Shown here: positions 30,001-33,000 of the stretch, piece by piece
Position numbering within the stretch: position 1 is the stretch's first letter
Layout of the letters: every line of letters begins with the position of its first letter
Origin: Leucoraja ocellata
Taxonomy: Eukaryota
NCBI GenBank assembly: GCA_036785375.1
Contig: JAWMAR010000391.1
Span: 1,178,001-1,242,000 of the forward strand
Direction of reading: 5' to 3'
DNA: 64,000 nucleotides
Program-made: the position numbers

Positions 30001-33000
30001 TTTATTGATAAATATAATTTTATATTGAACTGAACCAAAAAAAAAATCATGATTTGGTAATATTACAATAAACTATTATGTAAGAATTGCACTTTCAGTA
30101 CCTCCTGTCAGACAATGTTAATGGAAGCCAACCTTTCCTTTGCAGCCATTTTTGAATATATTGTTTTAGTTAATCTCCTTTTAAACTGAGAAATATAAGG
30201 CAACAAAAAATACATTGCTCCAAAAAAATTATTGGAGCCCTTACAATAACATCAAAGAGTTGGTTCTTAAACCATAAAATGCTGTAAACACTTGGCAGCT
30301 TAGATTGCATCAGTGGGAAAAGAAACAAGAGCTAGGTTTCATGTCAGAGACACTTCATCAGAACTGGTAAGGAGACAAAAGAAGTTTGTTAAGTTGGGGG
30401 GGGGGGGGGGGGGCAGGGAGACATATCTGATAGCATAAAACTAGAGTGACCATGGGGATAAACTGTAAACACGGTTATCTGGCCAATGAGTCAACGAGAA
30501 TAATTAGAGAATTACCGCATAGACAAAAGAATACAAGAGTTATAAAGAGTTAGTGCTTGGACTCGGTGATGAAGCTCCTTTTGTTGGGAAGGCAAAGTTC
30601 TTTATTTCTCGGTAGGTTGAGTTGCATTGCACTCATGCGATTGGCACTAATCTGAAGCCAGAGGCTGCCATGTTCCTTAATCCAAACTGGACATTTTCAC
30701 TTGTTTTTACCTCAGAAAAGGTTCAGCATACAACTGCAGAGGCACTTCTTCAGGATTAAAAGTTTCAAATCTTTGGAGAATGCCTGGCCAAAATATGCAG
30801 CTGTCTAAATCAAATTGACATAGTGATTCACTCAAAATCACTATGGCAATTTATGTCTAACTTTGAAATCACTGGAATCCACGCCAAGAGAATTGGGAAC
30901 TGCTATAAAGCTATACCGTTTGTTTTGTTGCAATTTTGCAGTGTGAATGATAGATGGAATTAGAAATCAAACACTAAACAAATGGCTGGAAAAGGCAGAA
31001 GAGCAATAAATGACAGTCAGCACACTTGGCTCTGCTCCTCTTGTCAGGTGTAAGAGACCAGATTTGTAGCCATGTCCCCCTGACGACTGTTTGCAAGAAA
31101 GATGTCCAACTGTAAGCCCCTCTCAGAACACGTGGAAGAGCAAAAAAAAAAAAACGCCCAGGAAGTATTGGAAGTACTAGGACAAGAGGAGAGTGATAAA
31201 TATTTTACCATTAAAGTTTGATCATGATCTGGAACTCACTACCGGGAAGGATAGCAACTTTTATCGTATTTAAATGTCCTTGGACATGTGCCAGGAGAAC
31301 CTGATCTCAAGGCAAGAGACTAAAGGATGTACTGAAGGATTCGACTGATGAAAAAGACGCGCTGAATAGCCTAGGGTTTTAAATTTTCCATGATTCGATT
31401 CGTTTATCTGCAAATGTAAAATGCTAAATGCATGCAAATGGAAAAAAAAGTCACAGTAAAGGTCTGAAATAAAAACTATATTATAGACGGGCATATTACC
31501 ACAGAAAATTATTTTTAAATAAGCNNNNNNNNNNNNNNNNNNNNNNNNNNNNNNNNNNNNNNNNNNNNNNNNNNNNNNNNNNNNNNNNNNNNNNNNNNNN
31601 NNNNNNNNNNNNNNNNNNNNNNNNNNNNNNNNNNNNNNNNNNNNNNNNNNNNNNNNNNNNNNNNNNNNNNNNNNNNNNNNNNNNNNNNNNNNNNNNNNNN
31701 NNNNNNNNNNNNNNNNNNNNNNNNNNNNNNNNNNNNNNNNNNNNNNNNNNNNNNNNNNNNNNNNNNNNNNNNNNNNNNNNNNNNNNNNNNNNNGTTATAT
31801 ACCATTCTCTTCCAAAATCTGCCATTGAAAGAAAAAGGGAACATTTGTCTTCACTGTCTTACTATAGTAACTAATACAGAAATGTACGGGGGCAGAAAGT
31901 CAAAGCGCGAGTAAATCGTGAATTCTCTTCTTATCCGACGTAGTGTTCAGGGAGCCGTTACGATACATCCCACCGGCTTGGAGCGCCTGCGAGAACGACT
32001 GCGACAGCGGTTTGTAGACAGAGGGTGCAATGTCACAAGTCGGCTCATTGGATCCATAATCGGCAGAGGTTGTTCTGAACAGCGGATTCTGGGGTTTCAC
32101 GAATGGAGCCGGGGATTGTGGCGACGTTGGGATCTTTTCCATGCAGGAAAAGACAGGGTTTCCAGGGTTCGCACAGGGAATCCACAGCTTATTTTTATCC
32201 TTTGTCGTTGGAGGGCGGACGGGAATAGGATCGTCGCATCTCGTTTCCTTTTTATCCTCAACATGTGGAGCATAGGATTGCGTGAGATCACCACTTGCGT
32301 CTTTGCAATCAAGGCCTGGTTTTACGTCGTGACATATGGAATCCAATGGAACTATTAAAGAAGTGGAAGGGTTGAAATCATCACGCAACGTATCTCCCAA
32401 AGGCTCCCCTGGAGTGAAACAGTAGTTGTCACAGATGGAGTCCTTAATGCAACCAACAGCTGGAGCGATAGGTGTGCTGAAGTCGTCGCAGACTGAGGTT
32501 CTAAATCCATCCATTCCAGTGTTTGGCGCACAGGGATCATCATACGCGGAGTAATCGAACTCCGCCTTTGGAGCAACGGGTCGATTGTTCGCTTCGCACT
32601 CTTCAGATTCATTATTTGGGATGGGTAGCGGGTTTTGACCATCACAAGTCACAGCATCAGAATCGGGCTTTGAAGCGATGAACTGGTTGAGACAGTCGAA
32701 CTCGCTGTCCTGAAGCAGGGCCGTACGAGTCGGAGATGAATTGAGATCCTTCGGCGGCTCATTAGATTCCGGCTTTGGAACAAAGGGCTGCTTGAAGTTG
32801 AAGTCGTCACATTCTGGTTCTTTGAACTGGACCCTTCGAGCAGGCGATGGGACGTGACAGTCAGCCATGGTGATGCGGTGCGATCTTCTTCTCTTACCGA
32901 GGGCTTTCTCCGGCGCCCTGCCGACCACAGGCGGGCCAGTGGGTTCCCTCGCCGAGTAATGGCTCCTCACTCCGGCGCCTCTGTCCCTAATTGCCCCACT

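What the first reader, a model, noticed from the sequence alone, without database searches (positions are those of the whole stretch)
32179..32868. PIERCE2 with a ~230-aa N-terminal array of degenerate ~17-aa Cys/Asp/Pro repeats
Seen: an uninterrupted 322-aa ORF whose PIERCE-like domain starts only at residue 231. Upstream are about 12 units anchored at C20-DDFN, K40-DLN, F57-DCLN, C75-DGQN, C91-EANN, Y109-DD, C127-DDF, C146-DNY, R162-DDFN, C179-HD, G193-DL and C211-DD, most followed by Pro-rich spacers (spacing 14-20 aa). Established: human PIERCE2 is only about 120 aa and is a microtubule inner protein that pierces the doublet wall and helps dock outer dynein arms. Inference: a lineage-specific extension. 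The repeats are diverged at DNA level yet have no stops, which suggests an old expansion kept by selection. It may act as a periodic tether along the axoneme, or in Cys-mediated metal binding or crosslinking (e.g. in sperm flagella).
Basis: partly seen in the sequence, partly recalled or inferred. Interest (0 to 1): 0.75.

Follow-up and report, generated by a model that had tools for sequence, protein, structure and literature searches.

The report
PIERCE2 gene with long repeat extension
A cilia gene that normally makes a tiny protein here carries, in the same open reading frame, a 230-residue acidic tail of about twelve faint 17-18-residue repeats, which probably lies inside the ciliary microtubule; nobody has yet shown that it is made.

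Summary
On the minus strand, 32868..31900 is one uninterrupted 322-codon ORF. Its last ~95 residues are a PIERCE2 module: Pfam PF14892 at 51.7 bits against a cut-off of 27, and human PIERCE2 chain 7ung_G at E 2.8e-16. Residues 1-230 match nothing in Pfam, the PDB or the Atlas.

A period of 17.25-17.5 residues in Cys/Asp/Glu beats 1000 of 1000 shuffles. A de novo search finds seven [DE]-[ST]-x-C-D-D-F-x-P sites. The other five units are supported by period and phase only.

The extension looks coding: 0 of 20000 dinucleotide shuffles stay open, codon-position bias is strong, and the first ATG sits in caccATGG. Head-to-head CCPG1 exons support orthology.

In the bovine structure the PIERCE N terminus binds CFAP53 in the A-tubule lumen, so the tail should be luminal.

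Expression, lineage range and function could not be tested, because no eukaryotic sequence collection was open. I rate it a new variant of a known kind, of moderate interest.

The parts
31900..32868 (-). Whole coding sequence: 322 codons plus TGA, with no interruption
   Evidence: it is the longest N-free ORF in the window
32179..32868 (-). N-terminal extension, residues 1-230. It is acidic (42 D+E against 22 K+R, pI 4.35), with 29 Pro and 13 Cys, in about 12 units of mean length 17.67 residues
   Evidence: no match in the PDB, Pfam or the Atlas
31903..32178 (-). PIERCE2 module, residues 231-322, including the conserved PC-x-NPGNPVFSCM segment at residues 231-243
   Evidence: Pfam PF14892, E 9.7e-14; PIERCE2 chains of human, cattle, pig and mouse
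32863..32880 (-). Start codon context CACCGCATCACCATGGCT. This is the first ATG of the open frame, with A at -3 and G at +4
   Evidence: the frame is open for 47 more codons upstream without an ATG
32794..32820 (-). Motif site 1, EPECDDFNF (residues 17-25)
32527..32553 (-). Motif site 2, YSAYDDPCA (residues 106-114)
32473..32499 (-). Motif site 3, TSVCDDFST (residues 124-132)
32416..32442 (-). Motif site 4, DSICDNYCF (residues 143-151)
32368..32394 (-). Motif site 5, DTLRDDFNP (residues 159-167)
32317..32343 (-). Motif site 6, DSICHDVKP (residues 176-184)
32221..32247 (-). Motif site 7, ETRCDDPIP (residues 208-216)
32801..33800 (.). G+C-rich, CpG-rich stretch (GC 0.58-0.71, CpG observed/expected 0.60-1.13) just upstream of the ATG. 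It is the likely shared promoter region with the opposite-strand CCPG1 gene
   Evidence: the promoter role is inferred
50218..50502 (+). CCPG1 exon carrying the FIR2 motif; context for orthology

Best explanation
This is the PIERCE2 (C15orf65/Ccpg1os) orthologue of a non-mammalian vertebrate; the taxon was not determined. Its whole coding sequence lies in one exon.

That exon encodes a 35-kDa protein:
- a normal C-terminal PIERCE module of about 95 residues;
- before it, a 230-residue acidic extension (pI 4.35), rich in Pro and Cys and probably disordered;
- the extension holds about 12 degenerate units of about 17.6 residues, each an acidic head ([DE]-[ST]-x-C-D-D-[FY]) followed by a Pro-rich spacer.

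Shown: the ORF, the module, the periodicity, the motif, the coding-like statistics and the gene neighbourhood.

Inferred from the bovine doublet structure: PIERCE N termini sit on CFAP53 in the A-tubule lumen while the C-terminal part exits through the wall. The extension therefore hangs into the lumen, once per 48-nm repeat.

Inferred, and my preferred mechanism: the tail is a flexible multivalent luminal strand. Its repeated acidic heads make many weak, equivalent contacts along the lumen, with the CFAP53/MNS1 filament or the inner tubulin surface. This would add avidity and length to PIERCE2's anchor under the dynein docking site. The array arose by old tandem duplication of a unit of about 53 bases. 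It has since been kept at protein level only.
For: Identity:
- Pfam PIRC1_2 scores 51.7 bits against a cut-off of 27.
- PIERCE2 chains match better than PIERCE1 chains (E 2.8e-16 to 2.9e-12 against 5.5e-09 and weaker).
- The PC-x-NPGNPVFSCM segment is shared with all four mammalian PIERCE2 chains.
- CCPG1 exons lie on the opposite strand beyond a CpG-rich stretch, as the mouse name Ccpg1os implies.

The extension looks coding:
- 0 of 20000 dinucleotide shuffles lack an in-frame stop; the mean is 9.6 stops.
- Codon-position by base chi-square is 44.5, against a maximum of 29.7 in 286 random 690-base pieces of the window.
- The first ATG sits in caccATGG.
- The ORF has no ATG between codons 118 and 243 (read). 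The conserved segment at 231-243 therefore cannot be reached from a downstream start in this exon.
- No donor with at least 7 of 9 consensus matches lies between 33700 and 31900.

Repeats.

Kept at protein level:
- At the seven sites, identity is 0.563 at codon positions 1+2 and 0.349 at position 3.
- Only 29 of 62 identical residue pairs share a codon.

Topology: passages of PMC8595878. The same passages note that algal FAP182 carries a large N-terminal domain, so N-terminal luminal additions have a precedent.

Geometry: SPM1 uses 32 residues per 8 nm along a protofilament (passages of PMC8144581). At that density one unit is about 4.4 nm.
Against: - There is no transcript, ribosome or peptide evidence, and no orthologue could be fetched. 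Expression, conservation and dN/dS are therefore all untested.
- The motif is weak. It reaches about 2 to 2.7 standard deviations above shuffles at widths 9 and 11, and 3 of 40 shuffles reach it at width 7.
- Five of the 12 units are not recognised by an HMM of the other seven.
- The codon-position comparison is biased, because the sites were chosen by residue similarity.
- The extension matches none of the catalogued luminal binding modules. The Mn signature occurs once (1072 of 5000 shuffles do as well). PYG, GFG and NW-x-E do not occur.
- The tail has a net charge of -20, and I know of no luminal partner shown to bind such a sequence.
- The single-sequence AlphaFold model has mean pLDDT 38.8. 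This fits disorder, but it is also what a poor prediction looks like.
- No polyadenylation signal was found in the readable 1 kb after the stop; a 269-N run lies there.
Confidence: 0.5

Rival explanations
1. The extension is translated but has no specific binding role. It is a tolerated, drifting low-complexity tail that grew by slippage or unequal crossing-over in an evolutionarily plastic N terminus. The weak periodicity is only the fading trace of that history.
For: The units are very degenerate, and 5 of 12 are not found by the HMM. Nothing matches in Pfam, the PDB or the Atlas. The model has low pLDDT and no secondary structure. N-terminal lengths differ widely among relatives: 96-173 residues in PDB chains and 106-174 residues in Atlas clusters.
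Against: Synonymous positions at the motif sites look saturated while Cys-Asp-Asp persists. CDD occurs 3 times (5 of 5000 shuffles reach this) and DDF 3 times (2 of 5000). The frame has stayed open over 230 codons where 9.6 stops are expected. Old neutral sequence would have lost both features.
Confidence: 0.27
2. The extension is not part of the main protein. The real transcript starts or splices further downstream, or an upstream exon supplies a short N terminus as in mammals. The long open frame is then 5' leader or alternative-isoform sequence.
For: There are no expression data. Two acceptor-like sites lie inside the ORF, before ORF bases 460 and 517. Mammalian PIERCE2 has only about 24 residues before the conserved PC-x-NPGNP segment.
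Against: Open-frame and codon-bias statistics. The start context is strong. There is no in-frame ATG between codons 118 and 243. No good donor site lies in the 1.8 kb examined. Both acceptor-like sites would still leave 58-77 residues of extension and would need an unseen upstream coding exon.
Confidence: 0.13
3. The Cys residues are the point. On this view the tail binds metal ions or forms disulfide crosslinks that stiffen sperm or ciliary doublets.
For: There are 13 Cys in 230 residues, 6 of them followed by Asp or Glu (81 of 5000 shuffles reach this). Acidic clusters could hold divalent cations. Passages of PMC8595878 note several calcium-binding luminal proteins in Chlamydomonas.
Against: Cys alone shows no periodicity (536 of 1000). 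No CxxC/His pattern or metal-binding family was found. There are only 3 His. Nothing here tests redox state.
Confidence: 0.08
4. It is an assembly artefact or a decaying pseudogene copy.
For: A 269-N run lies 106 bases after the stop.
Against: The frame is intact through both the extension and the module. The conserved residues are kept. The locus has the expected neighbour, CCPG1. There is no second copy in the window.
Confidence: 0.02

Closest known systems
Mammalian PIERCE2 (C15orf65 / Ccpg1os); PDB chains 7ung_G, 7rro_G, 9cpc_5G, 8i7r_N
   Same: Residues 221-318 align with chain residues 17-113 at E 2.8e-16, including the PC-x-NPGNPVFSCM segment and the C-terminal part. The gene lies opposite CCPG1.
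   Different: The mammalian chains are 120-122 residues, with about 24 residues before the conserved segment. Here 230 residues of periodic acidic sequence come first, nearly tripling the protein.
PIERCE1 (chains 7ung_y, 7rro_y, 8i7r_M; sea urchin 8snb_6I)
   Same: Same Pfam family and the same wall-crossing role.
   Different: The match is weaker (E 5.5e-09 to 6.1e-05). PIERCE1 is 123-167 residues, and no repeat array is reported in the passages read.
Chlamydomonas FAP182 and Tetrahymena CFAP182A/B
   Same: The C-terminal PIERCE-like part matches (CFAP182A E 0.0002, CFAP182B E 0.0016). FAP182 shows that the luminal N terminus can carry a large addition (passage of PMC8595878).
   Different: The FAP182 addition is described as a folded nucleotidyltransferase domain. 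The one here is a repeat-bearing, apparently disordered tail with no family match.
Luminal repeat proteins with Mn motifs (SPM1, FAP363, SAXO, MAP6)
   Same: They work as the proposed mechanism would: tandem short units laid along a protofilament inside the lumen. In SPM1 it is 32 residues per 8 nm (passages of PMC8144581; PMC10973386).
   Different: Membership fails. The Mn signature [TS][TS]x4[YF] occurs once in the extension and is not enriched (1072 of 5000 shuffles). The unit is about half as long and strongly acidic, with no predicted helix.

Membership tests
PIERCE1/2 family (Pfam PF14892, PIRC1_2) | Score above the curated Pfam cut-off | tested here: met
   51.7 bits against a cut-off of 27; residues 244-313 match profile positions 29-102 of 103
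PIERCE2 orthologue (rather than PIERCE1) | Closer to PIERCE2 than to PIERCE1 sequences | tested here: met
   The four PIERCE2 chains score E 2.8e-16 to 2.9e-12; the best PIERCE1 chain scores 5.5e-09
PIERCE2 orthologue (rather than PIERCE1) | N-terminal PC-x-NPGNPVFSCM segment just before the module | tested here: met
   Residues 231-243 align with all four mammalian PIERCE2 chains
PIERCE2 orthologue (rather than PIERCE1) | Genomic position opposite CCPG1 | tested here: met
   CCPG1 exons lie on the + strand at 50218-50502, 53206-53514 and 62674-62877. The first carries the FIR2 motif quoted in PMC7946963. The mouse gene is named Ccpg1os. The neighbour on the other side has CS and TPR exons and is DNAAF4-like by recall only.
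PIERCE2 orthologue (rather than PIERCE1) | Small size (about 120 residues) | tested here: not met
   322 residues. This is the point of the finding. It makes the gene a variant, not a non-member.
SNYG module (PMC10973386) | [ST]-N-x-x-[ILVY]-G signature | tested here: inconclusive
   The strict pattern is absent. The relaxed pattern finds TSADYG at residue 267, which aligns with NSSHYG/NSSNYG of the PDB chains.
Wall-piercing microtubule inner protein | N terminus on CFAP53 in the lumen, C-terminal part on the dynein docking complex | not testable with these tools
   Taken from passages of PMC8595878; no structure or partner sequences exist for this animal
Mn-repeat luminal proteins (for the extension) | Repeated [TS]-[TS]-x(4)-[YF] units | tested here: not met
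   There is 1 match (residue 124), and 1072 of 5000 shuffles do as well. The relaxed [TS]x4[YF] has 4 matches, reached by 523 of 5000 shuffles.
Other catalogued luminal modules (PYG, GFG, NWE) | Signature motifs | tested here: not met
   None is present; there is no Pfam family other than PIRC1_2 at E up to 1
DNA-level tandem repeat | Head-to-tail copies detectable in the DNA | tested here: not met
   TRF finds no array in 31900-32868. The best direct self-match by blastn is 20 bases at E 0.19.

The most novel reading that the evidence does not exclude
The tail is a luminal molecular ruler. Its twelve 17.67-residue units would each sit on one tubulin monomer, or two units per 8-nm dimer, along a protofilament or along CFAP53. 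One PIERCE2 molecule would then span roughly the whole 48-nm repeat between successive PIERCE2 sites. The distance from C20 to C232 is 212 residues, so 48 nm needs 2.26 A per residue; SPM1 uses 2.5 A per residue. This would be a new acidic Cys-Asp-Asp-Phe class of luminal lattice-binding repeat, unrelated to Mn, PYG or GFG. It would be the first case of a wall-piercing protein that also measures the repeat.
Probability: 0.07. Interest if true: 0.8.

Novelty: new variant of a known kind. Interest (0 to 1): 0.45.

Why it matters
PIERCE1 and PIERCE2 are thought to couple the 48-nm pattern inside the doublet to the 24-nm spacing of dynein docking outside it. Their loss causes laterality and motility defects in fish and mice.

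A natural PIERCE2 whose luminal end carries a 25-kDa periodic tail would show that this end is free to evolve new luminal contacts. It would also give a handle for asking what fills the lumen next to CFAP53 in a non-mammalian vertebrate. If the repeats do bind the lattice, they would add a new kind of luminal binding motif.

If the tail is merely tolerated, the finding is a curiosity of gene annotation.

Tried and rejected
- Atlas search with the extension alone gave no usable hit. With the whole protein it gave only PIRC1_2 and related small-protein clusters of 103-174 residues, at scores of 0.83-0.87, which that tool rates as leads only.
- PDB sequence search with residues 1-230 gave 0 hits at E up to 10.
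- An HMM of the seven motif sites did not pick up the five weaker units. It scored the conserved PCANPGNP segment at -1.6 bits. I therefore drop the idea that the repeats are copies of PIERCE2's own CFAP53-binding segment. Only its phase fits: C232 lies 21 residues after C211.
- The Mn-repeat lead was rejected.
- tblastn of the extension against the whole window found no second copy; the best other hit has E 3.0.
- Rfam at gathering thresholds gave 0 matches in the window.
- The single-sequence AlphaFold2 model had mean pLDDT 38.8 and pTM 0.15. I ran no fold search on it, because matches to such a model are meaningless.
- I sent no complex prediction.
- PDB searches to name the neighbours did not settle them. 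The CS exon gave only a chance-level hit. The TPR exon hit SPAG1, STIP1 and RPAP3 but not DNAAF4 itself. The CCPG1 exon gave no hit.
- One paper search was badly framed and returned only shark papers.
- 'PIERCE2' plus 'shark' found one unrelated abstract book. 'Piercer of microtubule wall' found 4 papers, 3 of them listed, none on a long form judging by title and abstract.
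Full report
WHAT IS THERE

The feature is on the minus strand. From the ATG at 32868 to the TGA at 31902..31900 there is one uninterrupted frame of 322 codons. It is the longest N-free open frame in the 64-kb window; the next longest are 226 and 218 residues. 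The finding's coordinates, 32179-32868, are exactly codons 1-230.

THE C-TERMINAL THIRD IS PIERCE2

- Pfam finds PIRC1_2 (PF14892) at residues 244-313, with E 9.7e-14 and 51.7 bits against a cut-off of 27.
- A sequence search of the PDB finds the PIERCE2 chains of human (7ung_G, E 2.8e-16, residues 221-318 against chain residues 17-113), cattle, pig and mouse.
- PIERCE1 chains and the Tetrahymena CFAP182 chains follow with weaker scores.
- The segment PC-x-NPGNPVFSCM (residues 231-243) is shared with all four mammalian PIERCE2 chains.
- Those chains are 120-122 residues long, so only about 24 residues precede that segment in mammals. Here 230 residues do.

NEIGHBOURHOOD

- The 1 kb upstream of the ATG (32801-33800) has GC 0.58-0.71 and CpG observed/expected 0.60-1.13, in a window that is otherwise 33-46% GC.
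- Beyond it, on the + strand, are three exons that I recognised as CCPG1 by recall. One of them, 50218-50502, carries the FIR2 motif. A paper quotes that motif for human CCPG1 as TASDDSDIVTLEPPK (one passage of PMC7946963).
- The mouse PIERCE2 gene is called Ccpg1os (passage of PMC8595878), so this head-to-head arrangement is the expected one.
- On the other side, converging on PIERCE2, are + strand exons at 16421-28209. Their CS-domain match is below the cut-off (19.7 against 21.3 bits). Their TPR_1 match is above it (29.8 against 27.8).
- I call this neighbour DNAAF4-like by recall only. The PDB holds no close relative of these exons.
- These spliced neighbours were searched exon by exon. 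I made no joined model, so their full-length identity was not checked.

DOES THE EXTENSION LOOK CODING?

- Dinucleotide-preserving shuffles of the 690 bases carry 9.6 in-frame stops on average. None of 20000 shuffles had zero stops.
- The other five frames of the same stretch have 4-22 stops.
- Base composition differs by codon position, with chi-square 44.5. In 286 random 690-base pieces of the window the median is 5.2 and the maximum 29.7.
- The ATG is the first in the open frame and sits in CACCATGG.
- Between codons 118 and 243 there is no ATG. The conserved segment at 231-243 therefore cannot be translated from a later start within this exon.
- A crude consensus scan found no donor site with at least 7 of 9 matches between 33700 and 31900. 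It found two acceptor-like sites inside the ORF, before ORF bases 460 and 517. Neither would give a mammal-sized protein.
- Against this, there are no expression data of any kind.
- No AATAAA or ATTAAA was found in the readable 1 kb after the stop. A run of 269 N (31525-31793) lies there. I left it as it is.

ARE THE REPEATS REAL?

Three independent tests were run against composition-preserving shuffles.

1. Self-alignment. The best off-diagonal self-alignment of residues 1-230 scores 66, against 37.7 +/- 6.1 (maximum 56) in 60 shuffles. The top alignments are long and offset by one or two units, as expected of a tandem array.

2. Fourier analysis.
   - The peak is at 17.5 residues for C+D+E (0 of 1000 shuffles reach it at any period from 8 to 40) and at 17.5 for C+D (3 of 1000).
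   - It is at 17.25 for D+E (8 of 1000).
   - D alone and P alone peak at 17.25 and 17.0 but are not significant on their own (95 and 100 of 1000).
   - C alone, hydrophobic residues and K+R show nothing (536, 647 and 407 of 1000).
   - Eight residue classes were tried, so the best result should be read as below about 0.01.
   - The signal is present in residues 32-105 alone (1 of 1000) and absent from the PIERCE module.

3. De novo motif search.
   - It finds [DE]-[ST]-x-C-D-D-[FY]-x-P at seven sites, starting at residues 17, 106, 124, 143, 159, 176 and 208.
   - The leave-one-out score is 35.1 against 25.5 +/- 4.8 at width 9, and 33.1 against 21.9 +/- 4.1 at width 11. In both cases 0 of 40 shuffles reach it.
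   - At width 7 a different, weaker motif came out and 3 of 40 shuffles reached it.
   - CDD and DDF each occur three times (5 and 2 of 5000 shuffles reach this).

An HMM of the seven sites does not recognise the other five units. The honest count is therefore seven units supported by sequence and five supported only by period and phase.

Folded on the mean period of 17.67 residues, the acidic and Cys residues cluster in about seven positions. The prolines fall in the next nine or so.

AGE AND SELECTION

- There is no repeat at DNA level (TRF; blastn self-comparison).
- At the seven sites, identity is 0.563 at codon positions 1+2 and 0.349 at position 3.
- Only 29 of 62 identical residue pairs use the same codon.
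- This fits an old expansion kept at protein level. However, the sites were chosen by residue similarity, which inflates the first figure.

PROPERTIES

- The extension is 25.3 kDa, with pI 4.35 and net charge -20. It has 29 Pro and 13 Cys.
- A single-sequence AlphaFold2 model has mean pLDDT 38.8 and almost no secondary structure before residue 286. This is compatible with disorder but is weak evidence.

WHERE WOULD IT SIT?

- Passages of PMC8595878 state that Pierce1 and Pierce2 bind CFAP53 through their N termini.
- They then protrude through the wall and reach the CCDC114/151 coiled coil of the docking complex through conserved C-terminal regions.
- The two proteins are 24 nm apart on the same CFAP53.
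- Algal FAP182 has a large N-terminal nucleotidyltransferase domain.
- An N-terminal extension is thus expected in the A-tubule lumen.

HOW MIGHT IT WORK?

I favour a flexible multivalent luminal strand whose repeated acidic heads make weak equivalent contacts along CFAP53/MNS1 or the inner tubulin surface. This is inference.

A known luminal repeat protein, SPM1, lays 32 residues along each 8 nm of protofilament (passages of PMC8144581). At that density one unit here would be about 4.4 nm and twelve units about 53 nm. Spanning 48 nm needs 2.26 A per residue. The geometry allows a ruler-like reading but does not show it.

The units are not members of any catalogued luminal module. The Mn signature occurs once and is not enriched, and PYG, GFG and NW-x-E are absent (module definitions from passages of PMC10973386).

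The rivals are a tolerated drifting tail, a frame that is not in the main transcript, Cys-based metal binding or crosslinking, and an artefact. They are scored in their own section.

WHAT STAYED UNCHECKED

The one genome collection on hand holds only bacteria and archaea, so I did not use it.
- No orthologue of this gene could be fetched. 'Lineage-specific', conservation and dN/dS are therefore all open, and the taxon of the window was not determined.
- I do not take the window for human. Its PIERCE2 is nearly three times the length of the human chain and aligns to it only over the conserved module.
- Paper supplements were closed.
- Searches of the held library for PIERCE2 with shark, and for 'piercer of microtubule wall', found nothing on a long form. 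That library omits most subscription journals and all database annotation. An automatic gene model of this protein may well exist in public records.

VERDICT

I rate it a new variant of a known kind, of moderate interest.

Noticed in passing
window 31525-31793: A run of 269 N lies 106 bases after the PIERCE2 stop codon on the minus strand, probably inside its 3' untranslated region. No AATAAA or ATTAAA was found in the readable 1 kb downstream. The run was left unfilled.
   Followed up: partly
window 33016-33067: A 12-base microsatellite (TCCCACTCTCTG, 4.3 copies, 97% matches) lies in the CpG-rich stretch between the PIERCE2 start and the CCPG1 side.
   Followed up: no
window 50218-50502, 53206-53514, 62674-62877 (+): These are CCPG1 exons. 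The first keeps the FIP200-binding FIR2 motif almost letter for letter with the human peptide quoted in PMC7946963. None has a Pfam family above cut-off, and the one exon searched in the PDB (50218-50502) had no hit.
   Followed up: partly
window 16421-28209 (+): A gene with CS-like and TPR exons converges on PIERCE2. It is DNAAF4-like by recall only. The best PDB relatives of the TPR exon are SPAG1, STIP1 and RPAP3.
   Followed up: partly
window 38051-38473 (+): A reverse-transcriptase fragment (RVT_1, E 1.2e-08) has further open frames next to it. It is a retroelement remnant in what is probably a CCPG1 intron.
   Followed up: no
window 12301-12735 (+) and 55286-55741 (+): Two open frames end in nearly the same 70-residue tail (..GHSLRIRGK.F.TE.R..FF.QRVV.LWNSLPQ..), so they are copies of one interspersed repeat family. 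The second copy was scanned against Pfam and matched no family.
   Followed up: no
window 32179-32868 (-), residues 1-230: The pattern S/T-x-x-D/E occurs 10 times, against 5.4 expected (52 of 2000 shuffles reach this). Five of the seven motif sites have S/T three residues before the first Asp. By recall this is the minimal casein kinase 2 pattern, so the heads might be phosphorylated.
   Followed up: partly
window 31915-32355 (+) and 32740-33219 (+): Long antisense open frames of 147 and 159 residues lie opposite the PIERCE2 coding region and its G+C-rich leader. I take them for the usual by-product of a stop-poor coding strand.
   Followed up: no
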